From contig CALRGX010000001.1 in NCBI GenBank assembly GCA_943358385.1, positions 66,380 to 130,379 on the forward strand: DNA of 64,000 bases, in the 5' to 3' direction. Numbering within the stretch: the stretch's first letter is position 1; each line of letters opens with the position of its first letter. The notes beneath the pieces are model-generated. The model searched no databases. It was not told the DNA's origin and saw only the letters and a program-made list of their open reading frames with translations. The translations under genes were made by a program, and so were the position numbers. This document shows, one piece after another, positions 23,663 to 53,571 of the stretch. The stretch is from Parcubacteria group bacterium. Lineage in GTDB: Bacteria > Patescibacteriota > Minisyncoccia > Phycocordibacterales > UBA2100.

Positions 23663-25507
23663 ATGGCGACCACGAAAGACGAATGGGACAGAGATCCAGA
23701 TATTGAAGAGCAGGGAATCGGCTACTTCTTCCGTGGAGTGGGTACTCTGTGGGCGTTGGCGGCTCCAGAAAAGCCGTATCTGATGAAGGCTTTTTGGGCA
23801 CTGCTGCTTGCAGAAGGGTTTGGCATACTTGCCCCCCTCTTCTTCAAGGCACTCGTTGATGAGCTACCACAGCTCTACGTGACTGGTATGAGCACGCTTG
23901 CTCTCAGTCTTATAGCCGCGATGGCGGGGGCAAAACTTCTCGGTATCGGTGTACGGCGATTCGTCCAAGAACCACTCTTCATCAAAGGCATCATACGCCT
24001 TGAGAATCGCTTGCCACAGGAGGTCCACAAAAAATTCATGGCTCTTTCACAGGGGTACCATGAAAAGGAAAACACTGGGCGAAAGGTAGCTAAGGTCAAC
24101 AAAGGTGTCGAGCGCATCATCGGCCTTATGGCTGATGGTTTTTGGATGCTCATACCGGCCTGTGTCTTCATCGTGGTGAATCTTGCCCTCATTACCTGGA
24201 TGGAATGGAAGCTCGGGCTCATCATGGTCGTTTCCATCGTGCTCTACGTCTGGATCAATATCCGCACTTACGTACAGTTCTACGCAGTGTGGGAGCGATA
24301 TGAAGATCTGAAAGAAAAGTCGGTGGGGCAGTTCTGTGAGTCCATTATGTGTGTCCGCACCGTCCAGGCCTTTGTGCAGGAAACACGAGAGGTAAAGCGG
24401 CATGGTGAAGTGCGCACAGAAATGTGTGATCTCGACATTGATGCATCAATTGGCCTACAAAAGCACTTCTTTCTTATGGAGAGTGTGCTTGCGCTGGGAT
24501 TTTGTGCAGCGCTCGTTCTCGGGATGTTCAGTGTTGCCTGGGGCCACTCCACCGTCGGTACGGTTGCCTACTTGTTTGCTGTAGGGAGCATGATGATCCA
24601 GAGCCTGTGGGGTGTCGTGCAGGTCTACACACGCATGTTGCGCTACTTAGTGGCGGCACAGCGCATCAAAAAAGTGCTCGATGAACCGAGCGATGTGCAG
24701 TCATGGCAACCAGCCCATACGCTCGTGCCCGAGAAAGAGTTGCTTGTGCTCGCACTCAATAAGGTGAGCCATTGTTACCCAGGCAAGAATGCGCCAGTGC
24801 TTTCGTGCATTGACATGCAGATTAAGCCGGGGAGCATGATTGCCTTGGTCGGCCGATCGGGAGCAGGAAAAAGCACAGTGGTGCACCTCGCCGCGCGCAT
24901 TTCTGACCCAACGAGTGGCAGTATCACCCTGAACGGAGTCGATGTACGATCACTTGATAGAGATTGGTATCGACGCTTATTTGCGGTGGTGCCTCAGGAC
25001 GTAGAGGTGTTCGAATGCAGTCTGCTGCAGAACATCACCTATGCCTATCCGGATGCTCCGAATGAGTGGATCGATAAGGCGGTAAAGGCCGCATGTCTCG
25101 ATGCGTTAGCAGAGGACACGAAGCGTTTTCCTGATGGTCTGCAAACGGCTGTAGGTGAACGTGGGGTCCGTCTTTCTGGCGGAGAACGACAGCGGGTAGG
25201 TATTGCAAGGGCCTACATCGCCCTCCTTTCCGGCGCACGATTCCTCATTCTCGACGAGGCAACCTCCAGTCTTGATTCAGAGTCTGAGCGCGTCGTACAA
25301 ACATTCATTCAAGCGCTACGCCGTGATCATGCGGTCACCATTATCGCCATTGCCCACCGCCTCTCGACGATTCGGCATGCGGACGAGATAGTGGTGATCG
25401 ACGATGGCTCCGTTACTGAAACGGGAACTCACGACGCGCTTCTGAAGAAAAATGGGCTGTATGCTCGGCTGACTGAGCTGCAGCAGCTAGGTGAAATTCG
25501 AGATTGA
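23663..25507 (+). CDS. ABC exporter, fused transmembrane + ATP-binding domains (MsbA-like)
   Basis: 614 aa; six TM N-terminal half; Walker A GRSGAGKST, signature LSGGERQRVGIARA, Walker B ILDEATSSLD. Confidence 0.9.
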   Translation: MATTKDEWDRDPDIEEQGIGYFFRGVGTLWALAAPEKPYLMKAFWALLLAEGFGILAPLFFKALVDELPQLYVTGMSTLALSLIAAMAGAKLLGIGVRRFVQEPLFIKGIIRLENRLPQEVHKKFMALSQGYHEKENTGRKVAKVNKGVERIIGLMADGFWMLIPACVFIVVNLALITWMEWKLGLIMVVSIVLYVWINIRTYVQFYAVWERYEDLKEKSVGQFCESIMCVRTVQAFVQETREVKRHGEVRTEMCDLDIDASIGLQKHFFLMESVLALGFCAALVLGMFSVAWGHSTVGTVAYLFAVGSMMIQSLWGVVQVYTRMLRYLVAAQRIKKVLDEPSDVQSWQPAHTLVPEKELLVLALNKVSHCYPGKNAPVLSCIDMQIKPGSMIALVGRSGAGKSTVVHLAARISDPTSGSITLNGVDVRSLDRDWYRRLFAVVPQDVEVFECSLLQNITYAYPDAPNEWIDKAVKAACLDALAEDTKRFPDGLQTAVGERGVRLSGGERQRVGIARAYIALLSGARFLILDEATSSLDSESERVVQTFIQALRRDHAVTIIAIAHRLSTIRHADEIVVIDDGSVTETGTHDALLKKNGLYARLTELQQLGEIRD

Positions 25508-25516
25508 TACGAAAGC

Positions 25517-25549
25517 AACAGCCGGCGCAGAATGCGCCGGCTGTTTTCA
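25517..25549 (+). terminator. palindrome ACAGCCGGCGCAGAATGCGCCGGCTGTTTTC (second copy of the post-secY terminator)
   Basis: identical stem to 23348 element, one loop substitution. Confidence 0.6.
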
Positions 25550-25566
25550 TATGCCACAATGGCACT

Positions 25567-26175
25567 ATGTTTTCAGCAATATTTTTCGACTTCGACGGTG
25601 TTCTTGTTGACAGCTTTGCGTTTCATCTTAAGCACCTCAATGAAGATGCACGACTGCCCGTTAGTGCGGAGCGTCTGAGAGATCTCCACGCCGTTAATTT
25701 TCACGAAGCAACGCAACATGACGCTACTTTCGATGGAGTCGACTGGGTGAAATATCATCAGCTTATTGCGCCTGCAGAGGCGAAGCAGCCTATGCATCCA
25801 TTGGCCCAGGCGACGATACGTGAATTGTACGAACGAAAGGAGCGCCTCTACATCGTTTCCTCTGGCGTCACGGCAGGTATAAAGCATTTTTTGGCTGAAC
25901 ACTCACTAAGTGAGTGTTTCTTGGATGTTTTTGGGTATGAACAGGGACTGTCTAAAACAGAAAAACTCTTGAATGTCGCGAACCGAAGTGGAATCAACTT
26001 GCAAGAGTCATTGTTTGTCACGGATACAGCTGGCGATGTGTGTGAGGGAAAAGCTGCAGGTGTCCCTGTCTTGGCAGTTACTTTTGGGTTTCATGATAGG
26101 GAAATGATTAAGGCAGCATCCCCAGAGTACTTGTGCGACAGATGGGAGGAGGCACGTCACATTCTCGATTTGTGA
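25567..26175 (+). CDS. HAD-superfamily hydrolase
   Basis: start MFSAIFFDFDGVLVDS (DxDGVL motif I); ORF 25504..26175. Confidence 0.7.
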   Translation: MFSAIFFDFDGVLVDSFAFHLKHLNEDARLPVSAERLRDLHAVNFHEATQHDATFDGVDWVKYHQLIAPAEAKQPMHPLAQATIRELYERKERLYIVSSGVTAGIKHFLAEHSLSECFLDVFGYEQGLSKTEKLLNVANRSGINLQESLFVTDTAGDVCEGKAAGVPVLAVTFGFHDREMIKAASPEYLCDRWEEARHILDL

Positions 26176-26200
26176 TGTCGCCTTGTGCTACCATGCGAGC

Positions 26201-26782
26201 ATGATGGAAAAAAAGGTGGTGGTAATTGCTGGGCCGACGGCCTCAGGCGAGAGTACCTTTACCAAGGAATTTGTGCTGGCGTACCCAAATTTCGAACGAT
26301 CAGTATCGGCAACGACACGCCGCCCGCGCATGAATGAAGAAGAGGGTATCGACTACTACTTCATGAACAAAGAGCAGTTTTTTGAGAACGTACAGAACGG
26401 TAACATCCCCGAGCACACCTACGTGAAAGAGCGAGATGCGCACTATGGAACCTACCTTCCTGATCTGCAGAAGAAGCTCGATTCAGGAAAAACCGTTATT
26501 GTGAACACTGATCTCCATGGCGCGCGTTTTTACAAAGACGAATATGGAGCATCAACTATTTTCATCAAGCCAAAGTCGATGCAGACTTTATACGACCGTC
26601 TGATTCGTCGCGACCCTACCATCACGCGCGAAGAGGTGATTACTCGCCTCATCAGTGCTTCCCAGGAAATCCTCGAGGCCGAGCATAAATACGATTTTAC
26701 GGTATTCAATGATGATGGTGAATTTGCTGAGACGATGATGAAAATCAACGATATCCTTGCAAAACAAGGGTACGACGTGTAA
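26201..26782 (+). CDS. gmk: guanylate kinase
   Basis: MMEKKVVVIAGPTASGESTF…SATTRRPRMNEEEGIDYYFM (GMP-kinase signature TTRxxRxxExxGxDYxF). Confidence 0.75.
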   Translation: MMEKKVVVIAGPTASGESTFTKEFVLAYPNFERSVSATTRRPRMNEEEGIDYYFMNKEQFFENVQNGNIPEHTYVKERDAHYGTYLPDLQKKLDSGKTVIVNTDLHGARFYKDEYGASTIFIKPKSMQTLYDRLIRRDPTITREEVITRLISASQEILEAEHKYDFTVFNDDGEFAETMMKINDILAKQGYDV

Positions 26783-26791
26783 ATATACGGT

Positions 26792-27388
26792 ATGAAAATC
26801 ACTCTGGGCGGGCCACCGGGCGCTGGAAAAGGTACGGTCGGGCGGCTCGTGGCCGCACATTACGGATATGAATTTATTTCAGGGGGCGATCTATTCAGAA
26901 AGGCGGCAGCTGCTCGTGGGATGACCATGGAAGCATTCGACACCTACATGAAAGAGCACCCCGAGGCACGTATCGACCATGAGATTGACGGCTTGCAAGT
27001 CGATATTGGAAAACATCAGGACAACTTTGTACTCGAATCGCGCCTAGCATGGCATTTTGCCCCCCAGTCCATCAAAATAAAGATAGATGGCGAACTCGAT
27101 GAGCGCATTCGGCGGATTTCAAAAGTGTCGAGTGTGGACCGTATTGCCTATACGCAGGATGATTTTGACGAGACGAAACGCAAGACGTTGAAACGATTTT
27201 CGGACCACCAGGCAAAGATTTTGGAACTGTACGGGATTGCCGATTTGGTGGCAGATGAGCACTTCGACATCGTGATTGATTCTACCGGCATCTCGGCGGA
27301 AGGGGTGGCAAAAAAAACCATTGAGGCGATTGAAACGTACGTGGCGGAGCATCCAGAAAAGCGTGGAGCGGATGCTCGCCAGAAATAG
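26792..27388 (+). CDS. P-loop NMP kinase, cytidylate-kinase-like (archaeal-type CMP kinase family)
   Basis: MKITLGGPPGAGKGTVGRLVAAHYGYEFISGGDLFR; 198 aa. Confidence 0.55.
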   Translation: MKITLGGPPGAGKGTVGRLVAAHYGYEFISGGDLFRKAAAARGMTMEAFDTYMKEHPEARIDHEIDGLQVDIGKHQDNFVLESRLAWHFAPQSIKIKIDGELDERIRRISKVSSVDRIAYTQDDFDETKRKTLKRFSDHQAKILELYGIADLVADEHFDIVIDSTGISAEGVAKKTIEAIETYVAEHPEKRGADARQK

Positions 27389-27408
27389 AAAAGCGAGGTA
27401 TATTCACC

Positions 27409-28026
27409 TTGATGTCTGACGATCTCCAGCAACTGACGAAACGGCCACTCACGGTGGTCTTCTTCGGTATTCAGGGTTCAGGCAAAGGGACACAGTCGCG
27501 GTTGTTGCAGGGCTATCTGGAGCGCAATGCTGATGTACCTAACCTGTACCTCGAAATGGGCGAGCGGCTTCGTGGGTTTGCGACCGGTGCAGGATTTGCC
27601 AGCAAAAAAGTAGGTGAGACCCTCAACACCGGGTCACTCCTGCCTGCGTTCATTCCTTCCCACATCATAACGAGCTTCTTTCTCCAAGAATTCACCGGGC
27701 GAGAGCATGTCATTGTTGATGGTGTTGCTCGTCGCATCGAGCAGGCGGTGGTTCTCGATGAGGCGCTCGCATTTTTTGGCCGCGAAGACTACCAAACAAT
27801 CGTATTGGATCTACCGCGCGACGTTGCCGTTGAGCGCATGAAAGGGCGAGGGCGAAATGACGATGATGATCACAAAATTGAGCGGCGTCTGGCGTGGTAT
27901 GAAAGTGAAACCCTCCCTGCTATTCAGGAGATTGAACGCCGTGGCAGAGTCGTGCACCACATCAGTGGCTGTCCCTCAGTGGAAGAAGTGCATCAAGAAA
28001 TTCTGAAGGCTCTTTCTCTCGCGTAA
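27409..28026 (+). CDS. adk: adenylate kinase
   Basis: VVFFGIQGSGKGTQ…; canonical position between secY region and map. Confidence 0.75.
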   Translation: MMSDDLQQLTKRPLTVVFFGIQGSGKGTQSRLLQGYLERNADVPNLYLEMGERLRGFATGAGFASKKVGETLNTGSLLPAFIPSHIITSFFLQEFTGREHVIVDGVARRIEQAVVLDEALAFFGREDYQTIVLDLPRDVAVERMKGRGRNDDDDHKIERRLAWYESETLPAIQEIERRGRVVHHISGCPSVEEVHQEILKALSLA

Positions 28027-28031
28027 TTTGT

Positions 28032-28802
28032 ATGATTGTGAGTAATGCAGACGATGTGCGTATTTTGAAAGAAGGCGGTAAGCGCTTGGGGACGATGCTA
28101 CAGGCACTGAGAGTGCTCGCCGCGCCTGGCGTGTCCACCCAAACACTCGAAGACGAAGCGCGACGGATGATAAAAGAATATGGCGATACCGCCGCGTTTC
28201 TCGACTACACTCCCGAAGGGGCACGTCGTGCGTATCCTGCGGCACTGTGTGTTTCGGTAAACGACGCTATTGTGCACGGTATTCCGAACGAAGACCCACT
28301 TACGCTTCAAGAAGGCGACGTGGTGACGCTTGATATGGGTATTGTTCATGAAGGTCTTATTACTGACGCTGCAGTGTCCGTGATTATTGGAGGAGGAAAC
28401 GCGGATACTCGCACCATGTTGCAGGCGGCATATGAAGCATTAGATGTAGGCATTCAAGCGGCGCGGGTGGGGAATCACATGGGCGACATCGGACACGCCA
28501 TAGAAAAAGTAGGGTTGCGCTACAAACTGGGATCGCCGCAAGAGTTGGGAGGCCACAGTGTCGGCCTGCACGTCCATGAAGAGCCGTTTGTTCCGAATTT
28601 TGGCGACCCGGGCGCAGGGCCACTCCTCAAAGAGGGGATGGTGCTCGCTATTGAGCCCATGTTTATGCTCGGAAAAAGTGCCATCAAACTTGATCGCGAC
28701 GGGTACACCTATCGTACGAAAGATGGAAGTAAATCAGTGCACGTGGAGCACACAGTTCTCATCACCAAAGATGGGCCAGAAATTCTAACGAAAGCTGCGT
28801 AG
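28032..28802 (+). CDS. map: type I methionine aminopeptidase
   Basis: 256 aa; metal ligands D…D…H…E…E pattern (VHGIP, DMG, HSVGLHVHE). Confidence 0.9.
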   Translation: MIVSNADDVRILKEGGKRLGTMLQALRVLAAPGVSTQTLEDEARRMIKEYGDTAAFLDYTPEGARRAYPAALCVSVNDAIVHGIPNEDPLTLQEGDVVTLDMGIVHEGLITDAAVSVIIGGGNADTRTMLQAAYEALDVGIQAARVGNHMGDIGHAIEKVGLRYKLGSPQELGGHSVGLHVHEEPFVPNFGDPGAGPLLKEGMVLAIEPMFMLGKSAIKLDRDGYTYRTKDGSKSVHVEHTVLITKDGPEILTKAA

Positions 28803-28816
28803 AGGATGACCGGCAC

Positions 28817-28859
28817 GCCCGCACACCTTGAAACCCTGCAGGGTTTCAAGGTGTGCGGG
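28817..28859. repeat. palindrome GCCCGCACACCTTGAAACCCTGCAGGGTTTCAAGGTGTGCGGG (CACACCTT family)
   Basis: perfect 19-bp arms; lies between map and downstream ATPase. Confidence 0.7.
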
Positions 28860-28871
28860 TATACTGTATGC

Positions 28872-31703
28872 ATGGAATTTGGTACACCACAACGCCAACC
28901 ACTTACAGAACCGAGCAAGCTGCGCACTACTGAAGATGAACTGGCCTACCTGCGCGCGCGAGTAGAAGAAAAAGAGCGCGAGCTCGGCGTACTCCAGGAT
29001 TCATTCGAAAGCGAGCGTATTGTAAGGAGAGAAATAAAAGAGTATGCCGAAGCGCCTGTTGCTGAAATTTTGCACGAAACAGTGATTACTCCCGAGCATG
29101 ACGCCACCCGCGATGCGCTGCGCCTCAAGCCTGAAGAGCACGACAAACAGATAGATGGGCTGTTGCGTATTGTGGCAGAGAGAGGGATTAGGAATGCGCT
29201 CACCGTTGTGGCACGTATGGCCAACCCTCACCTCGAGGATGATTTCCACCGCTCATTAGTACGCTATGTGGGAGAAGGGTTGCCTGTGGCGAGCGCGGGC
29301 GCCATGAGTGTGTTGGAATCAGGAGAGACCTGGCGAGCGCTTCATATGGCACTCTACGAGGTGCAGCCGCAGGGGGCCATGACCCGTGAGGATGGCAAGC
29401 AGGGCATGGAGCAGCTTTTGAAGTCCACCGAGCAGCTCTACGCGGGGCTTTTGGCAATTGCGAGCGGTAGCAAGGACAGTCGTGACAATGTATTTTCCCT
29501 TGAGATAGCTGTGCCGCAAGGAGCAGAGGATGCTATTTTCTATATCGCCGTTCCAGCTAAGAAGAAAGATTTGTTCGAGCGCCATGTGCTCTCCATTCTT
29601 CCCAACACACGCCTCTCAGAATGCCGAGAGGACTACAACATATTTGCCCCTTCAGGGCATACCATGGCTGCCTATGGAAAACTGCACGAGCATCCCATTC
29701 TCCCAATTCACACCTACGAAGAATTCCAACACGATCCGATGAACGTGATTCTTTCCGCGTTTGCCAAGCTCAAAAAGCACGGCGAAGGCGCCGCTCTTCA
29801 AATCATCGTAGGGAACGAAGATGATCGCTACAGCAGCTACTACCGCAAGATTTTGAAGGAGATGCACAAAGGGAAACCGTACAAGCAGGCGCTCAAGACA
29901 CCTGAAACGGCCCTCGGCGATGCGGCAAAAGAGTTGGGGAAAGAGTTTCTGAAAGCGTTGGGGCGCAAGGATGATGAAAACAAAGAATCTAGTGCCGACA
30001 GTGAACGTTTGGAGCGCATACAAAAGAAAACGCAGAGCCGCATTGTACCGGTCAATATTCGTATACTCTCTTCTGCCGAGACACGTGAGAGAGCAGAAGA
30101 CGTCATACAAAACCTAGCATCAGCATTCAATCAATTCGAGGATCCGCATGGTAACCGCATGGAGTTTCAAGAAGTAAGTGGTGGCAAGTTGCAGGGAGAG
30201 ATTCATAATTTCGTGCTGCGTCTCCCTGAAAAATCACGTGCCCTGCCTCTCAACTTTGCCGAAATCACCTCGCTCTACCATTTGACTGCAGAGGGCATCA
30301 ACACCTCACGGGAACTTAAATCGAGCCGCAGCAAGCAAGCACCGGCCCCTGTGGGCATGCCGGAAGAGGGGATTGTGCTGGGGGTCAACCGCTATGGCGG
30401 GTCGGAAACGACGGTCCACTTCGATGATACCGACCGCATGCGCCACTTCTACCTCGTGGGACAAACGGGCACTGGTAAATCGTCCCTTTTGAAAAACATG
30501 ATTATCCAAGACATTCGCCGAGGGGTGGGGGTCTGCTATATCGATCCACATGGCTCCGACATTCAAGACATCTTGGCTGCGGTGCCGCCAGAGCGAGAAA
30601 AAGATCTCATCTACTTTGATCCAGGCAACATCGCTCGGCCAATGGGGCTGAACATGCTGGAGTACGATGTGAATAACCCAGTAGAAAAAACGTTCCTCGT
30701 GGATGAGCTATTTGGCATATTTCAAAAACTCTATGGAGGCGTGGATGGGGCAGTGGGGCCGGCATTTGAACAGTACTTCCGCAATGCAACGCTTTTGGTG
30801 ATGGAGCACCCGGAATCAGGGAACACGATGGTGGACATCACGCGCATCTTTGCGAGCGAGCCATACCGGAAATTGAAGCTCTCGCACTGCAAAAATCCTC
30901 TGGTAAAGCAGTTCTGGGAAGAAATTGCATCAAAAACTGAAGGCGAGCAGTCGCTGGCGAACTTTGCCCAGTACGTCACCAACAAATTCGATGTGTTCTT
31001 GGCAAACGAAATTATGCGGCCGATTATTGCGCAGGAGCACTCCGCCTTTGATTTCCGCGACATCATGGATAATCGCAAGATTCTTTTGGTAAGTCTTTCA
31101 AAAGGGCGCATCGGAGAAATCAACTCATCGCTGTTGGGGCTCATCATTGTGGGCAAGTTCCTCAATGCTGCATTTTCTCGTGTGGATCTGATCGGGAAAG
31201 GGGAGATGCACCCGTTCTATATGTACATCGACGAGTTCCAGAACTTCACCACGCCGTCAATTGCCACTATCTTCTCCGAAGCGCGCAAGTACAAGCTTAT
31301 TTTAAACGTGACGCATCAGTACCTGGATCAGCTCACTGATGAAATCCGCACGTCAGTGTTTGGTAACGTGGGTACGCGCTGTGTGTTCCGTGTGGGTGAG
31401 AAAGATGCGCAGTTCTTCGAGCCGATGCTGCAGCCGGAATTTGCCGCATCTGATGTCATGAACCTCGACAACTTCAACGGTATTCTCTCACTTTTGGTAA
31501 AGGGGGTACCTGTGAAGCCATTTACCGTGGCATCCCTCAAGCCTGAGGATACCGACTACTCGCGCCTGGATTTCCTCAAGCAGCAGTCCTACCAGAAGTA
31601 TGGTCGTCCTCGCGAAGATGTGGAAGCTGAAGTCCAGGCTCGCTACAACGCAAAACCCCTCCCCGTGGACACCCTTGCAAGAGACGCTTTTGGAGGGTTT
31701 TAA
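28872..31703 (+). CDS. large P-loop ATPase, TraD/VirD4/VirB4-like (AAA-like DUF87 family) with about 480-aa novel N-terminal region
   Basis: ORF 28806..31703 trimmed to MEFGTPQRQ after palindrome; Walker A LVGQTGTGKSS, Walker B FYMYIDEFQNF, C-terminal TraG-D-like segment. Confidence 0.6.
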   Translation: MEFGTPQRQPLTEPSKLRTTEDELAYLRARVEEKERELGVLQDSFESERIVRREIKEYAEAPVAEILHETVITPEHDATRDALRLKPEEHDKQIDGLLRIVAERGIRNALTVVARMANPHLEDDFHRSLVRYVGEGLPVASAGAMSVLESGETWRALHMALYEVQPQGAMTREDGKQGMEQLLKSTEQLYAGLLAIASGSKDSRDNVFSLEIAVPQGAEDAIFYIAVPAKKKDLFERHVLSILPNTRLSECREDYNIFAPSGHTMAAYGKLHEHPILPIHTYEEFQHDPMNVILSAFAKLKKHGEGAALQIIVGNEDDRYSSYYRKILKEMHKGKPYKQALKTPETALGDAAKELGKEFLKALGRKDDENKESSADSERLERIQKKTQSRIVPVNIRILSSAETRERAEDVIQNLASAFNQFEDPHGNRMEFQEVSGGKLQGEIHNFVLRLPEKSRALPLNFAEITSLYHLTAEGINTSRELKSSRSKQAPAPVGMPEEGIVLGVNRYGGSETTVHFDDTDRMRHFYLVGQTGTGKSSLLKNMIIQDIRRGVGVCYIDPHGSDIQDILAAVPPEREKDLIYFDPGNIARPMGLNMLEYDVNNPVEKTFLVDELFGIFQKLYGGVDGAVGPAFEQYFRNATLLVMEHPESGNTMVDITRIFASEPYRKLKLSHCKNPLVKQFWEEIASKTEGEQSLANFAQYVTNKFDVFLANEIMRPIIAQEHSAFDFRDIMDNRKILLVSLSKGRIGEINSSLLGLIIVGKFLNAAFSRVDLIGKGEMHPFYMYIDEFQNFTTPSIATIFSEARKYKLILNVTHQYLDQLTDEIRTSVFGNVGTRCVFRVGEKDAQFFEPMLQPEFAASDVMNLDNFNGILSLLVKGVPVKPFTVASLKPEDTDYSRLDFLKQQSYQKYGRPREDVEAEVQARYNAKPLPVDTLARDAFGGF

Positions 31704-31761: not shown

Positions 31762-32373
31762 ATGCCTCACACACAAACCGAGCGGACGTTTGTCATTTTC
31801 AAGCCAGACGCTATCCAGCGTTCTCTCATGGGCGAGCTTATTAAGCGTTTCGAGCGCGTTGGCCTCAAGATGGTGGGTATCAAATTGGTAGACCTCAACC
31901 AGGTAGATGAAAAGAAGGTGTGGGAGCACTACAATAAAGACGACGCATGGTTCACGAAGAAAGGGACCGGACTCGCTGAGGCGTTGAAAAATGCAGGTAA
32001 GCCGATCACCAAGGAGCCAATCGACTACGGCAAAGACATCATCCGCGCCCTCATCAAGTACATGCAGGCAGGGCCAGTATTGATGATGGTATGGCAGGGT
32101 AACCAGTCGGTAGCGGTCATCAAGAAGCTCGTCGGAGAGACGGAGCCATCGACATCAGATGTCGGTACCATCCGTGGTGACTTCACCATCGATTCGTTCC
32201 CATTGGCCAACGTCGATGACCGCGCGGTGCGCAACCTCGTCCACTGTTCGGACAACCTCGATGATGCAAAGCGTGAAATTAAATTGTGGTTCGCTGATGC
32301 AGAATTGATGAACTACCGTCTCATCCCCGAGCAGATCTTTTATGACGTCAACTTGGACGGGATTTTCGAGTAA
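31762..32373 (+). CDS. ndk: nucleoside-diphosphate kinase (long form, 203 aa)
   Basis: ERTFVIFKPDAIQRSLMGELIKRFE, active-site His region NLVHCSD. Confidence 0.85.
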   Translation: MPHTQTERTFVIFKPDAIQRSLMGELIKRFERVGLKMVGIKLVDLNQVDEKKVWEHYNKDDAWFTKKGTGLAEALKNAGKPITKEPIDYGKDIIRALIKYMQAGPVLMMVWQGNQSVAVIKKLVGETEPSTSDVGTIRGDFTIDSFPLANVDDRAVRNLVHCSDNLDDAKREIKLWFADAELMNYRLIPEQIFYDVNLDGIFE

Positions 32374-39981: not shown

Positions 39982-41511
39982 CTAGTTACCCAACGTGAAG
40001 TCAGGCTGGGTTTCCATATAGCGAATAAAGTTCTCGTCGAACCACAGTGCCGTGTCGATTTCGCTTTGAGGAGGTGTGGCTGATGCGTTGGTGGGCACGG
40101 TCCGTGCAGTTTTGGTGTGAGTAAGGGGAGTGAGATATGCCAGTAGATTTTCCAAAATAGTGCGCGCCTCGCGAAGGAGTGACTGTAGGCTATAGGCGGT
40201 CGATGCGGAAATAGGTGCCGGTTCAAACGGAGTTGGTGCAAAAGTAGGGTTAACACTGTTTGGCTGTACAGGAGTTACTGTTGTCGGCGTGATGGCGGTC
40301 GGGTCGCTCGGTGGCGTGGGTGGCACCAGTCTGATCTGTGTATTGGTGAGTTCGGTAACGGTAGTGGTCGAAAGAGGGTGGGTAGTGGTTGCGGGAGGCG
40401 TGGTTGTTGGGGTGGGTATGAGTATATCTGGTGGTAGGGGTGTCACGGGAGTTATCGGAGTAGGAGTAACGACTGGTGTGGGTGCGGGTGCCACAGGTGC
40501 CGCACCTGTTTGCAGCTGATTGAATGCATTTTGCAGAGCCTGGAGCAGACCTTGATGTTGTGCCTGCCCTTGGCAACGCTGAGCATAGTTCATGCATGCT
40601 TGCGGATTGACCGGGGTACTCTTGCATTGCGCCGCCAGTTGTTCACATCCATTGCCCGCGCCGAAAAGTGCACGTGCCGCATCAGTAAAGGGATTGGTGG
40701 GTACCGCTGGGCGAGTTGAGGCGGGTGGGGTAGGCGAGGTAGGGGCTGTCGGGAATGGGGCGGGCGTATCCAATCCTCCTGTGGCACACCCTGAGGCTTC
40801 GACGTGCCAAGGATCGCTCGCTCCCGCGCCTACTTTAGAAAAAAGTTTTGCCTCACGTGCCGCATCAAGCAGCTGGTAGGTACGTGGGCAGCTCGCTTTT
40901 CCGCAGCTCTTGTCGTTGATATCAAAGGCAAGTCCTTTCACGTGTGGACACACTGCATACCAGTTCAAGTCGGTGGTACAGCTTACTTGTCTGCCACAGA
41001 CCACCGAGTTATTGGTATCGAGGCACGACGCGCGCTGGTGCGCTGGTGAGCGTAATCCTGCATTGATGCAAGGTTGGTAGCCCTTCTTCTCTGCTTCTTG
41101 GAAAAAGTTTGCAAAGCAGCGCAGTACGCCCGGATTGGTCCCCGAGCGGCCATCTGTTTGCGTGGTGTAGTTGAAATACACATATCCTTCTTTGATTTTG
41201 TACCACTCTTTTGGGTCGATACTTTTTTCATTGAACCCTGGAGGAAAACCAAACTGTTTTCCATCACACATTTTCGTCGATAAGTACTGGATTGCCGCGT
41301 ACGTTTCATCAGGCTTGAGTTTGGCGATGGTGCTCGGATCGATACAGCGGCCGCGCACGATGGGCCCCATCACAGCTATGTCAGCCGCGGTTGCTTCTCG
41401 TCCACCGGGAGGGCAATCGAGTGCGTGTGCATGAGACGGTGAGAACGATAGCGTGGCGAGAAAAAAGAAAACGGTAACAAGGTGTATGTGCGCTTTGGCG
41501 CGAAAAGGCAT
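39982..41511 (-). CDS. secreted peptidase M15 (D-Ala-D-Ala carboxypeptidase/VanY-like) with long Pro/Thr-rich tail
   Basis: signal peptide; Zn-binding H..G.A.D (CPHVKGLAFDIND); about 150-aa PT-rich low-complexity region. Confidence 0.6.
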   Translation of the reverse strand: MPFRAKAHIHLVTVFFFLATLSFSPSHAHALDCPPGGREATAADIAVMGPIVRGRCIDPSTIAKLKPDETYAAIQYLSTKMCDGKQFGFPPGFNEKSIDPKEWYKIKEGYVYFNYTTQTDGRSGTNPGVLRCFANFFQEAEKKGYQPCINAGLRSPAHQRASCLDTNNSVVCGRQVSCTTDLNWYAVCPHVKGLAFDINDKSCGKASCPRTYQLLDAAREAKLFSKVGAGASDPWHVEASGCATGGLDTPAPFPTAPTSPTPPASTRPAVPTNPFTDAARALFGAGNGCEQLAAQCKSTPVNPQACMNYAQRCQGQAQHQGLLQALQNAFNQLQTGAAPVAPAPTPVVTPTPITPVTPLPPDILIPTPTTTPPATTTHPLSTTTVTELTNTQIRLVPPTPPSDPTAITPTTVTPVQPNSVNPTFAPTPFEPAPISASTAYSLQSLLREARTILENLLAYLTPLTHTKTARTVPTNASATPPQSEIDTALWFDENFIRYMETQPDFTLGN

Positions 41512-41575
41512 GACACCAGTATATCAAGCACGCGCCCAAAAGGGCGCGTGCTTGAGGTACACAGGGTACGATGTG

Positions 41576-42256
41576 TTACTTCTGCTGCATGTTGGCGCGG
41601 TGTCCCATGCTGCCCATTCCTTTACCGTGTCGTCCGGGGGTGATACCCAGTTCGTTCATGATTGCTTTGGCTGCTTCGCGATCACCGCTTTCCATAAGTC
41701 GGTGCGCTTCAGCAAACTGAGCAAAATTTTCTGCAGTCACTTCGCTTTCGAAGGGTGATCCAGCGACCGCAGCTTTGAACGCGGCGAAGCCCTTGTTCTG
41801 CAGTGCCACGCGCACCGCTTCATGTGTCGCACGATGGTTCTGCATGTCAGCTATGCGTGCGTCGGCTTGCGCTTGGGTAAGCTTTCCGCTTTGCACTGAC
41901 TGTGCCAAACGTTCACGCATGGCTACTTCACGCGCCGATTCCATGTCCTCACGTGTAATGCCTGCAGCAGCGAGCATCTCTTTTGGGTTTTCACCGTTTT
42001 GGATGCGCGTGCGGAATTCATCTTGAGTAAGGCCCAAGAGTTGTGCCTCGACAGCGCCATGGCCGCGACCTCCTTGCCCCATGTGGCTGCGCACCTTTCC
42101 TTGCAATGCGGTCGTATCTACCGCCGCATACGCCGTACCCGATGCGGCAAGTCCTGCTAAGAGCAACCCCGCAACAATGTAGTGTTTATTCATATGTTCT
42201 TTGTTAGTGAAACCAGTAATGCAGAGATAGCGCAAGCCACTACGAATCGAGACCAC
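41576..42256 (-). CDS. secreted hypothetical protein (226 aa)
   Basis: signal peptide MNKHYIVAGLLLAGLAASGTAYA; helical A/E/R-rich. Confidence 0.5.
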   Translation of the reverse strand: MVSIRSGLRYLCITGFTNKEHMNKHYIVAGLLLAGLAASGTAYAAVDTTALQGKVRSHMGQGGRGHGAVEAQLLGLTQDEFRTRIQNGENPKEMLAAAGITREDMESAREVAMRERLAQSVQSGKLTQAQADARIADMQNHRATHEAVRVALQNKGFAAFKAAVAGSPFESEVTAENFAQFAEAHRLMESGDREAAKAIMNELGITPGRHGKGMGSMGHRANMQQK

Positions 42257-42355: not shown

Positions 42356-43093
42356 TCAACGTGTCGATGTTTCGAGCGACGGTAGTCCTTTGAAACCTCG
42401 TTTGGGAAAGAGTACTCGCTCTTTATTGAGTGGTCGTATGCCGAAAGCGGCGATACTCCCATCCACCAGTTCTCCAAACACAACCACCGTGTCGCCGATG
42501 CTGAGCGACGGTGGGCGGCGGGTCTCTTTGTTCATGATAATTACGGTAGTTGAGCCGGTGCGTGTTTCGATGACGAAACGCTCGCCAATCTCGATAATTT
42601 CGCCTACATGAATGTTAGGGCGCTCATGCAAGGCGCCTTCATAAAAGCGGGCACCCAGTGGCGGTAGTTTGCCTTCGCGACCCATGCGAAACATGCGTTC
42701 ATGGAGTGTGGTGTGTGCTACAAGGCTCGCGCCAACAATGGTGATCGACAAGACCGCCAGTGCTGAGTACAGAACGGGGCGTCGATATACAACCGCAAAG
42801 TGCATCCCCAAAATTTCAATAGTGGCGATGAGCATCATAATCGCGAGCCCTATGAGCCATGGCAGAGAGAAGAGAAGCGGCAATATGCCGTGCATGCCCA
42901 GGCTTGGTGCCGCCAACAGACCATTGCCTCGCAGCATGAATATTGCGAAGCTGAGAAGGAAAAGGGCCACTGCAAATGATAGAAGAATGGCGATGAGCCA
43001 CAAAGCGGTATGAGTGAGGAAAAAGAGCCGTGAGCGCATGCGCACCTGGTCGGTTTTGATGGCGCCCATAATGTGCTCTTTCAGATGCTTCAT
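42356..43093 (-). CDS. membrane protein, probable anti-sigma factor partner of upstream ECF sigma
   Basis: start overlaps sigma-factor stop (ATGA); 3-4 TM helices. Confidence 0.5.
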   Translation of the reverse strand: MKHLKEHIMGAIKTDQVRMRSRLFFLTHTALWLIAILLSFAVALFLLSFAIFMLRGNGLLAAPSLGMHGILPLLFSLPWLIGLAIMMLIATIEILGMHFAVVYRRPVLYSALAVLSITIVGASLVAHTTLHERMFRMGREGKLPPLGARFYEGALHERPNIHVGEIIEIGERFVIETRTGSTTVIIMNKETRRPPSLSIGDTVVVFGELVDGSIAAFGIRPLNKERVLFPKRGFKGLPSLETSTR

Positions 43094-43749
43094 ATAAGTG
43101 GTGGCATTATTTTTTTAAGTGCTGCTCTTGCGCGTGCCAGTCGAACACCGACGGTTGCTTTTGGTATTTGAAGGATGGCGGCGATATCTTCATAGCTCTT
43201 CTCTTCGTAATAAAAAAGCACAATGGCCTCGCGATACTTCGGGTCCAGTGTCGCAATAAAAGGCGCCATATCAACTACATCAGGCATATCTGGTTGTGTC
43301 TCGTCTGGGATGCCAGCGGGGAAGAAGGTATCCAAATCAACGAACCGGACTTTTTCTCGACCACGGCTGCGGATGAGATTTACATATACGTTGTGTGCAA
43401 CGCGATAAAGCCACGGCGAGAAGCGCTCGGTGCTGCGGTAGCTCTGAATGCGCTCGTAGGCGCGCAGAAACACATCCTGCACGGCATCCTCCCGGTCTTC
43501 GTAATGCGAAAGAAAACGCTGTGCGTACCTGCTCATTTTCGGTTCGTATCTATCAACGAGGACGCCAAAAGCTTCCGTATCGCCCTGTTGTACTCGGGCA
43601 GCTACCAGTTCGTCTGATTCAGATTCCATACAGGTAGCGTTGATACTACGGCTAGTACACGCCCGGTCAAGGAAATATTTCATGGTGGCTTCATGATTAA
43701 AGGGGTGGGGCTGCGATGCATGAAATAAAGAGCCTGTCGCGGTGTACAA
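43090..43749 (-). CDS. ECF-family RNA polymerase sigma factor (true start probably internal, M23 or M41)
   Basis: region 2 DAVQDVFLRAYERIQSY…FSPWLYRVAHN, region 4 YREAIVLFYYEEKSYEDIAAILQIPKATVGVRLARAR. Confidence 0.8.
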   Translation of the reverse strand: MYTATGSLFHASQPHPFNHEATMKYFLDRACTSRSINATCMESESDELVAARVQQGDTEAFGVLVDRYEPKMSRYAQRFLSHYEDREDAVQDVFLRAYERIQSYRSTERFSPWLYRVAHNVYVNLIRSRGREKVRFVDLDTFFPAGIPDETQPDMPDVVDMAPFIATLDPKYREAIVLFYYEEKSYEDIAAILQIPKATVGVRLARARAALKKIMPPLI

Positions 43750-43761
43750 TATAAGACGTCT

Positions 43762-45666: not shown

Positions 45667-45669
45667 CGT

Positions 45670-46371
45670 GTGATCGAGCTAAAAAACATAACGAAGACGT
45701 ACCAGATGGGTGACGTCGAAACCGAAGTCCTCAAGGGTATTTCTTTTACTATTCAAAAAGGTGAATTTGTCGCCATTATGGGGCCGTCAGGCTCAGGCAA
45801 ATCAACGCTCATGCATATTATTGGTGCCCTTGATACGCCAACGTCTGGTACCTACACGCTTGATAAAAAAGACATTAGTGCGATGACCGATGACGAATTG
45901 GCAAACATTCGCGCCAATACCATCGGTTTTGTATTTCAAGCATTCAATCTCTTGCCGCGGGCAACGGTATTGAGAAATGTTCTGCTGCCCTTGGTATATG
46001 CTGAAATGGGAGATGCAGAGCGCATACATCGCGCAGAGCAGGCGCTGCGCGCGGTTGCCATGCCTGAAGATCGCTGGCTGCACCATAGCAACGAAATTTC
46101 AGGTGGGCAGAAGCAACGCGTCGCGATTGCGCGAGCGCTCGTGAATAATCCAAAGCTTATTTTGGCAGACGAACCTACGGGAAACCTCGATACCAAAACA
46201 GGGGAGATTGTGCTCGCGACATTTCGTGAACTCAATGAGGAATCGGGCCACACCATTATTTTGATTACGCATGAGCGCGACGTGGCAGAACACGCAGACC
46301 GAATCATACACATCAGAGATGGCTCAATAGAAAAAGATGATGTGTTGCGTACCCGTCATAAAAAGCACTAA
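45670..46371 (+). CDS. ABC transporter ATP-binding protein, MacB/LolD family
   Basis: [35 protein letters not shown]. Confidence 0.9.
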
Positions 46372-46372
46372 T

Positions 46373-53000: not shown

Positions 53001-53168
53001 ATAGCTCCGCCTTTCAATTCCCGCTCGCGATGTGCGCAGGCACATCGCTCATCTCCACCAACGAAAAAGCCGCCCTTGCGGGCGGCGTTTTCTTAAAGGT
53101 TTGTGGCGCCGTGTACGCAGTGCGTCACGGCATCCTACAAAATTATAGTCGTGAGACTCCTTAATTTT

Positions 53169-53571
53169 GTGGAGATGGCGGGAATTGAACCCGCGTGCAG
53201 TGAGGGAACACACAAATATCTACAGGGCGTAGTACATTCAGAGTTTTTTAAACGGTGCGAGTGTGGAATGCACAAGATGACGCATCGTCGATCTATTTTT
53301 CTTTAAGGCGCAGTCGCAAAGCGACGACTAGCCCGGACCCGAAGGTATGACGTTTCAAACTACGTATCGGATGTCGGTAGCGAAACGGCCGCGATGGCTG
53401 CCACAAGGTGGACTTACGCGAAAGCGAACTGGAGATCTGTTGCCTGAATTGGGCTCAGAACGCCACGTGCTGTTTTAGTTGCACTTATTGGGTTGTGGCA
53501 GTTTTAATAGGTACCACAGCTATGCCATGCATCTGTATGAGCCGATCTCCCTGTCGAAGCCAATCATCCCC
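53169..53571 (-). ncRNA. ssrA: tmRNA (transfer-messenger RNA)
   Basis: 5' GGGGATGATTGGCTTCGACAGGGA…; 3' T-arm GCGGGTTCAATTCCCGC + acceptor CATCTCC pairing with 5' GGGGATG, discriminator A; internal reading frame ending …QFAFA-TAA. Confidence 0.8.

What the first reader, a model, noticed from the sequence alone, without database searches (positions are those of the whole stretch)
28806..31703. 943-aa TraD/VirD4/DUF87-like ATPase occupying the infA–rpmJ–rpsM–rpsK–rpoA slot after map
After adk–map the canonical continuation (infA, rpmJ, rpsM, rpsK, rpsD, rpoA, rplQ) is absent from the next 35 kb. In its place is a large P-loop NTPase with Walker A GQTGTGKSS and Walker B YIDEFQNF, typical of conjugative coupling proteins and VirB4/HerA-like AAA proteins. 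Its roughly 480-aa N-terminal half has no recognisable homology. A perfect 43-bp palindrome separates it from map. This could be part of a type IV secretion / DNA-uptake apparatus or a novel defence ATPase.
Basis: partly seen in the sequence, partly recalled or inferred. Interest (0 to 1): 0.6.

Follow-up and report, generated by a model that had tools for sequence, protein, structure and literature searches.

The report
Orphan secretion-type ATPase of Paceibacteria
The gene after map is real and encodes a soluble motor ATPase of the type IV secretion (VirD4/VirB4) superfamily that is inherited vertically at this position across many Paceibacteria (CPR bacteria); the family is already catalogued, its function is untested, and it is neither a conjugation gene on a mobile element nor a defence gene.

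Summary
The ORF is real. The true CDS is 28872-31703 (943 aa). The 42-nt perfect palindrome (28818-28859) lies between the map stop codon and this start.

The protein has three parts:
- Residues 1-145 are a helical module. In sister lineages it is a separate small gene directly upstream of the ATPase (hhalign 98.6%, E 1e-15).
- Residues ~150-490 are DUF8128 (PF26449). Its predicted fold matches only the N-terminal domain of VirB4/TrwK.
- Residues ~495-890 are a coupling-protein-type (TrwB/VirD4) ATPase domain with invariant Walker A and B motifs. There is no transmembrane helix.

At least 371 species genomes of Paceibacteria encode a relative. In 45 of the 80 best loci the order secY-adk-map-X-ndk is kept, and no locus carries infA or rpoA. 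In 79% of loci a TATAAT/TATACT box lies 5-9 nt before the ATG, which suggests a leaderless mRNA from the gene's own promoter.

No T4SS, relaxase or defence genes are nearby. It belongs to the "orphan T4CP homologues" already counted in Patescibacteria. I infer a hexameric translocation motor that docks on an envelope machine encoded elsewhere; that function is not shown.

Verdict: a new variant of a known kind, of moderate interest.

The parts
28032..28802 (+). map (methionine aminopeptidase), last gene of the spc-type ribosomal cluster; conserved upstream neighbour
   Evidence: Pfam Peptidase_M24, E 2e-40. map lies upstream of the ATPase in 37 of the 80 genome loci.
28818..28859 (.). Perfect 42-nt palindrome (21+21 nt, no spacer) that ends 1 nt before the -10 box. 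Candidate terminator or insulator hairpin for the upstream operon, or an operator. Specific to this lineage.
   Evidence: unique in the window, 0 expected by chance. As RNA it folds at -43.1 kcal/mol, z = -7.2. The 99%-identical strain L005 keeps a 17-bp stem, with a C-G to A-T double change at the inner end of the stem. It is absent in relatives at 82% and 66% identity. No T-tract follows it, and the terminator scan does not call it. No exact-arm match in the metagenome contigs.
28860..28865 (+). TATACT -10 box, 6 nt upstream of the ATG; inferred promoter of a leaderless mRNA
   Evidence: Sequence. The same box lies 6-7 nt before the ATG in L001, L003, L004 and L005. TA[TC]A[AC]T lies 5-9 nt before an in-frame start in 62 of 78 loci, against map 1/41, ndk 3/42, secY 2/22 and infC 0/20. 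The sigma-70 scan finds no -35/-10 pair here.
28872..31703 (+). CDS of 943 aa: the TM-less 'class I' DUF8128 / T4CP-like ATPase
   Evidence: AlphaFold2 model with mean pLDDT 81.
28872..29306 (+). Residues 1-145: helical N-terminal module with the conserved motif GIRNAL..ARM.NPHLEDDFHR.LVRY. It is homologous to a separate small protein of about 130-150 aa encoded directly upstream of the membrane-anchored (class II) ATPases, so this is a gene fusion.
   Evidence: hmmsearch best hit 4.4e-20; 22 of 57 upstream ORFs score E < 1e-3. The profile is specific among 1779 ORFs, and hhalign gives Prob 98.6%, E 9.6e-16 over 119 columns. No Pfam family matches.
29319..30341 (+). Residues ~150-490: DUF8128 (PF26449) alpha/beta domain; the predicted fold resembles the N-terminal domain of VirB4/TrwK
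   Evidence: PF26449 is precomputed on homologues, including one 99% identical. Foldseek with the N-terminal-only model gives 14 significant hits, all TrwK chains (E 2e-7 to 7e-4, about 410 columns, TMq 0.30-0.37). The full-length model aligns over about 910 columns with TrwK, E 7e-16. There is no sequence-profile support: hhalign Prob 0.6%.
30354..31541 (+). Residues ~495-890: RecA-like nucleotide-binding domain of coupling-protein (TrwB/VirD4) type
   Evidence: Foldseek to TrwB: TMt 0.62-0.67, rmsd about 5 A. TraG-D_C, DUF87, TraD and VirD4-like partial hits. DotL and TrwB are the best PDB sequence hits.
30459..30482 (+). Walker A, GQTGTGKS (residues 530-537)
   Evidence: invariant G530-K536 in 61 homologues.
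30669..31076 (+). Residues ~600-735: all-helical insertion between Walker A and Walker B, in the position of the T4CP all-alpha domain
   Evidence: Helices 604-733 in the model. The class II relative matches TrwB_AAD_bind over profile positions 10-312 of 387.
31218..31235 (+). Walker B, YMYIDE (residues 783-788), followed by FQNF
   Evidence: D787, E788, F789, Q790 and N791 are invariant.
31762..32373 (+). ndk (nucleoside diphosphate kinase), conserved downstream neighbour; probably co-transcribed with the ATPase (inferred)
   Evidence: Pfam NDK, E 8e-36. ndk lies downstream in 37 of the 80 loci, and within 200 nt in 25 of those 37. It rarely has its own start-proximal -10 box (3/42).

Best explanation
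The gene encodes the soluble 'class I' form of a Patescibacteria-specific branch of the VirD4/VirB4 family of type IV secretion ATPases.

Shown:
- It is a three-part fusion: a small partner-protein module (residues 1-145), the DUF8128 domain (residues ~150-490), and a coupling-protein-type ATPase domain with an all-helical insertion and intact, invariant catalytic motifs.
- It has no transmembrane helix. Its sister form (class II, 37% identical over residues 147-927) carries a single N-terminal transmembrane helix in place of residues 1-146, and keeps the partner module as a separate, tightly abutting upstream gene.
- It is a vertically inherited chromosomal gene. It is fixed behind map and in front of ndk in many Paceibacteria, and has moved elsewhere in some clades.

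Inferred:
- The DUF8128 domain has a VirB4-N-terminal-domain-like fold. This rests on structure prediction only.
- It is transcribed from its own promoter as a leaderless mRNA, probably together with ndk.
- It assembles into a hexameric ATP-driven translocation or coupling motor. It reaches the membrane through its N-terminal modules by protein-protein contact, where class II uses its own helix. It then feeds a polymer (DNA or unfolded protein) to the T4SS-like envelope machine that Patescibacteria encode elsewhere.
- In this lineage, the 42-nt palindrome insulates or terminates the ribosomal operon just upstream of the promoter, or serves as an operator.
For: Family and architecture:
- More than 395 full-length homologues, 53-99% identical, named 'TraM recognition domain-containing protein', carry PF26449 + PF12696.
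- 61-sequence alignment: mean column identity 66%, Walker A and B invariant.
- No transmembrane helix.
- Foldseek: TrwK/VirB4 over about 910 columns (E 7e-16), and TrwB at TMt 0.65. The N-terminal-only model matches only TrwK.
- Class I against class II: hhalign E 2e-213, residues 147-927 against 28-801. The class II transmembrane helix is seen.
- Fusion: (Prob 98.6%).

Vertical inheritance and synteny:
- At least 371 species genomes encode a relative.
- 45 of the 80 best loci keep map and/or ndk next to the gene. Whether the gene is linked follows the clades of the protein tree.
- G+C content is like that of the neighbours.

Promoter.

Literature:
- PMC12102498 reports 5,713 T4CP homologues in 2,918 of 3,035 Patescibacteria genomes, of which only 148 lie near virB4; VirB4 occurs in 2,417 genomes; relaxases are rare.
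- PMC10633639: the essential T4SS cluster of Southlakia lacks a recognisable coupling protein.
Against: - No T4SS component lies within 64 kb, nor within +/-6-10 kb in any related locus.
- T4CP homologues occur in about 500 more genomes than VirB4 does. The Southlakia T4CP homologue was reported as not essential although the T4SS is. A T4SS-independent role is therefore quite possible.
- Hexamer formation, membrane docking and the nature of the substrate are untested.
- The similarity to the VirB4 N-terminal domain rests on predicted structure only (TM 0.30-0.37). It has no sequence-profile support.
- The window protein itself clears the Pfam cut-offs only marginally.
Confidence: 0.5

Rival explanations
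1. A housekeeping nucleic-acid translocase that works independently of the T4SS. The same motor would have been taken over for DNA or RNA uptake or processing that feeds nucleotide salvage, or for chromosome handling. It would act with its small partner module rather than with VirB proteins.
For: - The gene is orphaned from virB4 in nearly all genomes, and T4CP homologues are more widespread than VirB4 (2,918 against 2,417 of 3,035 genomes). The authors state that exaptation cannot be ruled out.
- It sits within a run of nucleotide kinases (gmk, cmk-like, adk ... ndk), with a beta-CASP nuclease 2-4 kb downstream. ndk is probably co-transcribed.
- Its core-gene-like conservation is high for CPR proteins.
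Against: - adk and map at the end of the spc operon are a universal arrangement, so the kinase neighbourhood may be coincidental.
- In 35 of the 80 loci the gene lies elsewhere, with no shared neighbour.
- Class II loci show no kinase or nuclease theme.
- No DNA-binding evidence was obtained here.
Confidence: 0.27
2. It is the VirB4 signature ATPase of this organism's T4SS, highly diverged.
For: - The best full-length structural match is TrwK/VirB4 (E 7e-16, about 910 columns).
- The N-terminal domain matches only TrwK.
Against: - No hit to CagE_TrbE_VirB, and AAA_10 scores 12 bits against a cut-off of 27.5.
- hhalign against a TrwK-family profile aligns only 37 P-loop columns (Prob 69%) and nothing in the N-terminal domain.
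- At the sequence level the ATPase domain is T4CP-like.
- Patescibacterial virB4 is reported near dnaA/dnaN together with virB3/6/8 and trsD, which is not the case here.
Confidence: 0.06
3. A conjugative coupling protein that belongs to an integrated conjugative or mobilisable element inserted after map.
For: - T4CP-type ATPase domain.
- The NCBI name is 'TraM recognition domain-containing protein'.
Against: - No relaxase, integrase or mating-pair-formation genes nearby.
- Same position across families of Paceibacteria at 42-99% identity.
- G+C content is not deviant.
- No transmembrane anchor.
- Relaxases are found in only 103 Patescibacteria genomes.
Confidence: 0.03
4. An anti-phage defence ATPase (MADS mad8-like or HerA-like).
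For: - PADLOC mad8, E 3.3e-18 over residues 500-851.
- Weak HerA and DUF87 hits at the P-loop.
Against: - The mad8 and mad3 models also hit the ordinary ABC exporter at 23663-25507 (mad3 3e-26, mad8 4e-9). No other mad component is present.
- No NurA, Sir2 or nuclease partner is adjacent.
- The gene has a stable housekeeping context and is inherited vertically. Defence genes are usually patchy and sit in variable islands (my own knowledge).
Confidence: 0.03

Closest known systems
Type IV coupling proteins (TrwB of R388, VirD4, TraD/TraG, DotL)
   Same: - RecA-like ATPase domain with a GxTGTGKS P-loop and a DEF Walker B motif.
- A helical insertion between the two motifs, and the TraG-D_C region.
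- Predicted structure superposes on TrwB (TMt about 0.65, rmsd about 5 A).
- DotL and TrwB are the best PDB sequence hits.
   Different: - No N-terminal transmembrane domain.
- About 490 extra N-terminal residues (partner module + DUF8128).
- Far below the NCBIfam equivalog cut-offs (36.9 against 366 bits).
- Not linked to a relaxase or to mating-pair-formation genes.
- A chromosomal, vertically inherited gene.
VirB4 / TrwK
   Same: - Two-domain layout: a large alpha/beta N-terminal domain followed by a TrwB-like ATPase domain.
- It is the only structural match for the N-terminal half.
   Different: - No sequence-profile similarity outside the P-loop.
- No VirB4 Pfam models hit.
- No adjacent virB3/6/8.
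'Orphan T4CP homologues' of Patescibacteria (Quinonero-Coronel et al. 2025, PMC12102498), and Pfam DUF8128 (PF26449)
   Same: - This protein almost certainly belongs to that set: it is T4CP-like, not near virB4, and occurs in Paceibacteria.
- The family is already delimited as DUF8128 in Pfam.
   Different: - That paper counts these proteins but does not dissect them.
- I found no full-text mention of DUF8128.
- Four points were not found there: the split into class I and class II, the fusion with the small upstream gene, the VirB4-like N-terminal fold, and the map-X-ndk synteny with a start-proximal -10 box.
Class II DUF8128 ATPases (e.g. P0239; 'type IV secretory system conjugative DNA transfer family protein' of Portnoybacteria and other Parcubacteria)
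   Same: 37% identical over residues 147-927, hhalign E 2e-213. Same DUF8128 domain and same ATPase domain.
   Different: - Class II has one N-terminal transmembrane helix in place of residues 1-146.
- It keeps the partner as a separate upstream gene.
- Its neighbourhoods differ: PMT_2 glycosyltransferases, GtrA-like proteins, dnaX, and once PilM_2.
HerA / FtsK translocases
   Same: Same ASCE P-loop translocase superfamily. HerA hexamers appear among the structural hits (E 1e-11). DUF87 hits at the P-loop.
   Different: - FtsK_SpoIIIE scores 13.7 bits against a cut-off of 24.
- No NurA-type partner nearby.
- The HerA matches are weaker than the TrwB matches in TM-score (0.52-0.54 against 0.65).

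Membership tests
DUF8128 (PF26449) family | Match to the Pfam model PF26449 | tested here: met
   The model is not in the local Pfam copy. It is precomputed on 112 of the 120 listed homologues, including P0001, which is 99% identical. It is named DUF8128. phmmer with the N-terminal half alone finds 828 cluster representatives.
Type IV coupling protein (VirD4/TraG/TrwB) | ATPase domain recognised by T4CP sequence models | tested here: met
   Marginal for the window protein: TraG-D_C 22.1 bits (cut-off 22), TrwB_AAD_bind 15.2 (below 20.5), no T4SS-DNA_transf hit. Clear for its class II relative: TrwB_AAD_bind 41.6 and T4SS-DNA_transf 31.2, both above their cut-offs. That relative aligns to the window family at E 2e-213.
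Type IV coupling protein (VirD4/TraG/TrwB) | TrwB-like fold, including the all-alpha insertion between Walker A and Walker B | tested here: met
   Foldseek to the TrwB entries 1e9r, 1e9s and 1gki: about 440 columns, TMt 0.62-0.67, rmsd about 5 A, E 3e-11. Helices 604-733 lie between the two motifs.
Type IV coupling protein (VirD4/TraG/TrwB) | N-terminal transmembrane anchor | tested here: not met
   The highest 19-residue Kyte-Doolittle mean is 1.52, and it lies inside the ATPase core; none is found in the N-terminal half. Class II relatives do have one helix.
Type IV coupling protein (VirD4/TraG/TrwB) | Encoded together with a relaxase and/or mating-pair-formation genes | tested here: not met
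   None in the window. None recurs in the 80 + 83 related loci.
Type IV coupling protein (VirD4/TraG/TrwB) | NCBIfam equivalog or subfamily score (TraD, VirD4-like) | tested here: not met
   TIGR03743 scores 36.9 bits against 366; TIGR03754 28 against 647; CD1115 family 23.1 against 250.
Type IV coupling protein (VirD4/TraG/TrwB) | Hexameric ring; DNA- or substrate-stimulated ATPase activity | not testable with these tools
   No multimer prediction or biochemistry was available.
VirB4 | VirB4 sequence models (CagE_TrbE_VirB, AAA_10) or profile similarity to the TrwK family | tested here: not met
   AAA_10 scores 12 bits against 27.5, and PF03135 is not listed. hhalign against 27 TrwK homologues aligns only the P-loop (37 columns, Prob 69%). 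The N-terminal domain scores Prob 0.6%.
VirB4 | VirB4-type N-terminal domain fold in front of the ATPase domain | tested here: inconclusive
VirB4 | Adjacent virB3, virB6, virB8 or trsD | tested here: not met
   None detected by Pfam in the window. Divergent homologues among the ORFs without a Pfam hit cannot be excluded.
FtsK/SpoIIIE | FtsK_SpoIIIE domain above the cut-off | tested here: not met
   13.7 bits against a cut-off of 24, at the P-loop only.
HerA-NurA type helicase | HerA core plus a nuclease partner | tested here: not met
   DUF87 scores 25.7 bits, but only over residues 533-583. HerA PADLOC models give E >= 0.002. No NurA-like neighbour.
MADS defence system (mad8) | The mad8 component together with the other mad genes | tested here: not met
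   mad8 gives E 3.3e-18, but the same model also hits an ABC exporter. Among the ten neighbours scanned, the only mad-model hits (mad3, mad8) are on that same ABC exporter.

The most novel reading that the evidence does not exclude
DUF8128 ATPases may be a CPR-specific two-component motor (small partner + ATPase) that keeps a VirB4-like N-terminal domain on a VirD4-like engine. Two things would follow.
- It would be a surviving intermediate between the two T4SS ATPase lineages.
- It would work without a T4SS channel, for example to import or thread host-derived nucleic acid for nucleotide salvage. That would explain why it is nearly universal, why it is expressed with ndk at the end of the ribosomal superoperon, and why it occurs in genomes that lack virB4.
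Probability: 0.15. Interest if true: 0.8.

Novelty: new variant of a known kind. Interest (0 to 1): 0.5.

Why it matters
Patescibacteria depend on host cells, and in the one genetically tractable member the T4SS-like machine is essential. Yet that gene cluster lacks a coupling ATPase, while 'orphan' T4CP homologues occur in 96% of the genomes surveyed, with no known role.

This locus gives that orphan a concrete anatomy: a partner module, a VirB4-like domain and a T4CP engine. There are two forms, one fused and soluble, the other split and membrane-anchored. The gene also has a fixed chromosomal address with its own leaderless-type promoter.

That makes several things directly testable: whether the small protein binds the ATPase, what docks the motor at the membrane, and whether its presence tracks virB4. 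It also offers a possible view of how VirB4 and VirD4 diverged.

Tried and rejected
- Exact look-up of the window protein in public assemblies: not on record.
- Protein comparison with A1 against single TrwK or TrwB sequences, and A1 against A3, failed internally. I ran hhalign in Python instead.
- Sequence-profile homology of DUF8128 to the VirB4 N-terminal domain: none.
- R388 under accession BR000038 is not in the plasmid collection. I used the trwB and trwK genes of pHH2-227 instead.
T4CP affinity therefore rests on Pfam, NCBIfam and Foldseek.
I used the precomputed Pfam column instead.
- The palindrome as a dispersed repeat: it occurs once in the window, and the exact-arm pattern is not in the JGI metagenome contigs. 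This was rejected.
- The palindrome as a canonical intrinsic terminator: no T-tract follows it, and the scan does not call it.
- A sigma-70 -35/-10 pair upstream of the gene: none. Only the -10 box is conserved.
- Defence reading (MADS): rejected.
- Conserved neighbours in the 35 loci not linked to map or ndk: none shared by more than 6 loci.
- Literature: no paper mentions DUF8128. The searches Parcubacteria+TraG and CPR+leaderless gave nothing relevant.
- Many related loci are labelled 'uncultured Candidatus Saccharibacteria' in their records. They share the Paceibacteria synteny, so I doubt these labels, but I could not verify them.


Full report
**1. What is in the sequence**

An ORF runs from 28806 to 31703 on the + strand. 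Counted from the first ATG it has 965 codons. I take 28872 as the real start for three reasons:
- Sixty full-length homologues begin there, mostly with Met-Glu.
- A TATACT box lies 6 nt upstream.
- The 66 nt in front of it are filled by a perfect 21+21 nt palindrome at 28818-28859. The palindrome is unique in the window and not expected by chance.

Walker A (GQTGTGKS, residues 530-537) and Walker B (YMYIDEFQNF, residues 783-792) are present and invariant in the family.

The upstream genes are secY, an ABC exporter, a HAD hydrolase, gmk, a cmk-like kinase, adk and map. The downstream genes are ndk, a PG_binding protein, small ORFs, a beta-CASP/RNase J-like nuclease, a SLOG protein, an ECF-S component and infC on the minus strand.

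tblastn with my recalled E. coli sequences for infA, rpmJ, rpsM, rpsK, rpsD, rpoA and rplQ finds nothing in the 64 kb. Positive controls are found.

**2. Which organism and which family**

The protein has more than 395 homologues of about 930 aa, 53-99% identical. They come from Candidatus Kaiserbacteria and other Paceibacterota. Where they are named, the name is 'TraM recognition domain-containing protein'. They carry the precomputed domains PF26449 (DUF8128) and PF12696 (TraG-D_C).

The local Pfam copy lacks PF26449. On the window protein it gives only marginal hits: DUF87 at 25.7 bits, TraG-D_C at 22.1 bits, and TrwB_AAD_bind, AAA_10 and FtsK below their cut-offs. NCBIfam gives partial TraD and VirD4-like hits far below the equivalog cut-offs. 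DotL and TrwB are the best PDB sequence hits.

A scan of one genome per GTDB species found at least 371 genomes with a relative. The best 80 are from Kaiser-, Nomura-, Taylor-, Campbell-, Adler-, Zambryski- and Yonathbacteria and from unclassified Paceibacteria.

**3. Genomic position**

Close relatives at 57-99% identity keep the order secY-(kinases)-adk-map-X-ndk-...-RNase J-like-SLOG-...-infC.

Among the 80 species-level loci:
- 45 have map upstream and/or ndk downstream.
- Where map is found, it lies within 400 nt in 19 of 37 loci.
- Where ndk is found, it lies within 200 nt in 25 of 37 loci.

The 35 other loci share no neighbour. On a neighbour-joining tree of the protein, linked and unlinked loci form separate clades. 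This looks like one orthologue that moved in some lineages.

No locus contains any alpha-operon gene. G+C content is like that of the surroundings. So the gene is not a recent insertion that displaced infA-rpoA. The arrangement is old and vertically inherited, and nothing suggests a mobile element.

**4. Promoter and palindrome**

In the window, L001, L003, L004 and L005 a TATACT box lies 6-7 nt before the ATG.

Across loci, TA[TC]A[AC]T lies 5-9 nt before an in-frame start as follows:

| Gene | Loci with the box |
|---|---|
| X (this ATPase) | 62 of 78 (79%) |
| map | 1 of 41 |
| ndk | 3 of 42 |
| secY | 2 of 22 |
| infC | 0 of 20 |
| adk | 33% |
| RNase J-like gene | 40% |

With the usual distance of about 7 nt from the -10 box to the transcription start (established knowledge), the transcript would begin at or next to the A of the ATG. 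That makes it a leaderless mRNA. This is an inference, not a demonstration.

ndk lacks such a box and usually follows closely, so I infer that X and ndk are transcribed together.

The palindrome ends 1 nt before the -10 box. Further points about it:
- As RNA it folds at -43 kcal/mol, z = -7.2.
- The 99%-identical strain keeps a 17-bp stem, with a C-G to A-T double change at the inner end of the stem.
- Relatives at 82% and 66% identity lack it.
- No T-tract follows it.
- It is not a dispersed repeat.

It is a lineage-specific element. It may be a hairpin that ends or insulates the ribosomal-operon transcript, or an operator that overlaps the promoter. I cannot decide between these.

**5. Anatomy of the protein**

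There is no transmembrane helix. AlphaFold2 with 61 sequences gives mean pLDDT 81.

- **ATPase domain.** Foldseek against the PDB returns TrwB at TMt 0.62-0.67 and rmsd about 5 A over about 440 columns, and HerA more weakly. Helices 604-733 lie between Walker A and Walker B, where coupling proteins have their all-alpha domain.
- **Whole protein.** TrwK/VirB4 aligns over about 910 columns with the best E-value, 7e-16.
- **N-terminal half alone.** A separate model of residues 1-490 (pLDDT 72) matches only TrwK: 14 chains, E 2e-7 to 7e-4, about 410 columns, TMq 0.30-0.37. The next hits have E > 2e-3.

So the layout resembles VirB4, with a large N-terminal domain in front of a TrwB-like engine. 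The engine's sequence, however, is T4CP-like. hhalign against a TrwK-family profile finds only the P-loop and nothing in the N-terminal domain. I therefore treat the VirB4-like fold as probable, not established.

**6. Two forms and a gene fusion**

phmmer with residues 1-490 against 1.84 billion representatives finds 828 proteins. They fall into two groups:
- Proteins of about 910-1000 aa match from residue ~15 on and have no transmembrane helix (class I).
- Proteins of about 790-840 aa match only residues ~150-490 and start with one transmembrane helix (class II).

Class II is large, with at least 1355 clusters. It is named 'type IV secretory system conjugative DNA transfer family protein' in Portnoybacteria and other Parcubacteria. 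It passes the cut-offs of TrwB_AAD_bind and T4SS-DNA_transf.

Class I residues 147-927 align to class II residues 28-801 at hhalign E 2e-213, with 37% identity.

In 57 of 68 class II loci, an ORF of about 130-150 aa ends within a few bases of the ATPase start. A profile of class I residues 1-150 finds these ORFs:
- The best hit is 4.4e-20, and 22 of 57 score E < 1e-3.
- The profile is specific among 1779 ORFs of those loci.
- hhalign gives Prob 98.6%, E 9.6e-16 over 119 columns, covering nearly the whole small protein.

The window protein is therefore a fusion of this partner protein with the ATPase, and the membrane helix has been replaced by a poorly predicted linker (residues ~136-154). The partner has no Pfam family. 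Its conserved motif is GIRNAL..ARM.NPHLEDDFHR.LVRY.

**7. How it most likely works**

Shown: an intact ATPase of T4CP type that is conserved throughout; a three-part fusion architecture; vertical inheritance; and the absence of adjacent T4SS, relaxase or defence genes in the window and in more than 160 related loci.

Inferred: like TrwB, VirD4 and VirB4, it forms a hexameric ring that uses ATP to move a polymer. Class II is held at the membrane by its helix and works with the small partner. Class I has the partner built in, and must reach the membrane through protein contacts.

The most economical target is the T4SS-like machine of Patescibacteria, which is encoded elsewhere. In Southlakia epibionticum that cluster is essential and lacks a recognisable coupling protein (PMC10633639).

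Against this reading, the survey of 3,035 genomes (PMC12102498) reports:
- T4CP homologues in 2,918 genomes, but VirB4 in only 2,417.
- Only 148 of 5,713 T4CP homologues lie near virB4.
- The Southlakia T4CP homologue was not essential.

A T4SS-independent role is thus a serious rival at 0.27. One version is nucleic-acid handling linked to the nucleotide-kinase and ndk neighbourhood. Conjugation, a defence function and 'true VirB4' are each unlikely. The mad8 PADLOC hit is not specific, because that model also hits an ABC exporter.

**8. Comparison with what is known, and novelty**

The family is already catalogued as Pfam DUF8128, and NCBI names it as TraM-recognition or T4SS DNA-transfer proteins. 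It almost certainly falls within the 'orphan T4CP homologues' counted by Quinonero-Coronel et al. 2025. So the protein's existence and its superfamily are known.

I found no text on DUF8128. The following points were not in the papers I read:
- the split into class I and class II;
- the fusion with the upstream partner gene;
- the VirB4-like N-terminal fold on a VirD4-like engine;
- the conserved map-X-ndk address with a start-proximal -10 box.

It fails two defining features of a canonical coupling protein, the membrane anchor and linkage to transfer genes. It also fails the sequence tests for VirB4. I therefore file it as a new variant within the T4SS-ATPase superfamily, not as a member of either family.

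Interest is moderate (0.5). It is not a surprise in kind, but it gives an open question in CPR biology a concrete and testable object.

Noticed in passing
window 3303-7874: A YcaO cyclodehydratase gene (4322-5632, -) and a nitroreductase-family gene (7140-7874, -) lie between fusA (666-2810) and tuf (8082-9290), together with two ORFs without Pfam hits (3303-4325, -; 6001-7143, +). This could be an azoline/RiPP-type or ribosomal-modification cluster inserted in the str operon.
   Followed up: no
window 23663-28026 and 31762-32373: An ABC exporter, a HAD hydrolase and three nucleotide kinases (gmk, cmk-like, adk) lie between secY and map. ndk follows the ATPase. Together they form a run of nucleotide-salvage genes at the end of the ribosomal cluster, and it varies among relatives.
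   Followed up: partly
related loci L001-L087 (adk, RNase J-like and SLOG genes): A TATAAT/TATACT box 5-9 nt before the start codon also occurs at adk (33%), the beta-CASP/RNase J-like gene (40%) and the SLOG gene (4 of 5). Leaderless mRNAs therefore seem common for the first genes of operons in these Paceibacteria.
   Followed up: partly
window 53167-53571 (-) and 63802-63874 (-): A tmRNA gene with tag peptide ATKTARGVLSPIQATDLQFAFA, and a tRNA-Ile with anticodon TAT.
   Followed up: no
window 23663-25507: The PADLOC models mad3 (E 3e-26) and mad8 (E 4e-9) hit this ordinary ABC exporter. These MADS models are promiscuous for P-loop ATPases and should not be read as evidence of defence on their own.
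   Followed up: yes
L003 8848-9931; L001 14485-15317: Small toxin-antitoxin-type genes are inserted in the conserved block in relatives. In L003 a PemK toxin and a 195-aa ORF lie between map and the ATPase. In L001 a nucleotidyltransferase/HepT pair lies after ndk.
   Followed up: no
L090 11539-13820; L006 12480-16573: Class II ATPase loci sometimes continue into envelope genes. In L090 a 500-aa PilM_2 protein and two small ORFs follow. In L006 four multi-TM proteins without Pfam hits and a 529-aa secreted protein with a poly-proline stretch follow. PMT_2 glycosyltransferases recur upstream.
   Followed up: partly
window 42356-47596: An ECF sigma factor gene (43090-43749, -) lies next to a 245-aa ORF without a Pfam hit (42356-43093, -; possibly an anti-sigma factor). 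It faces a HlyD / ABC ATPase / MacB-FtsX export cluster (43762-47596, +).
   Followed up: no
window 39982-42256 (-), 59927-61165 (-): Large ORFs with no Pfam match: 509 aa, 226 aa and 412 aa. Divergent envelope or secretion components cannot be excluded.
   Followed up: no
L011, L012, L014, L015 and other loci: Many related genome records are titled 'uncultured Candidatus Saccharibacteria bacterium'. They nevertheless carry the Paceibacteria-type protein (42-52% identity), and several have the same secY-adk-map-X synteny. The record labels look unreliable.
   Followed up: no
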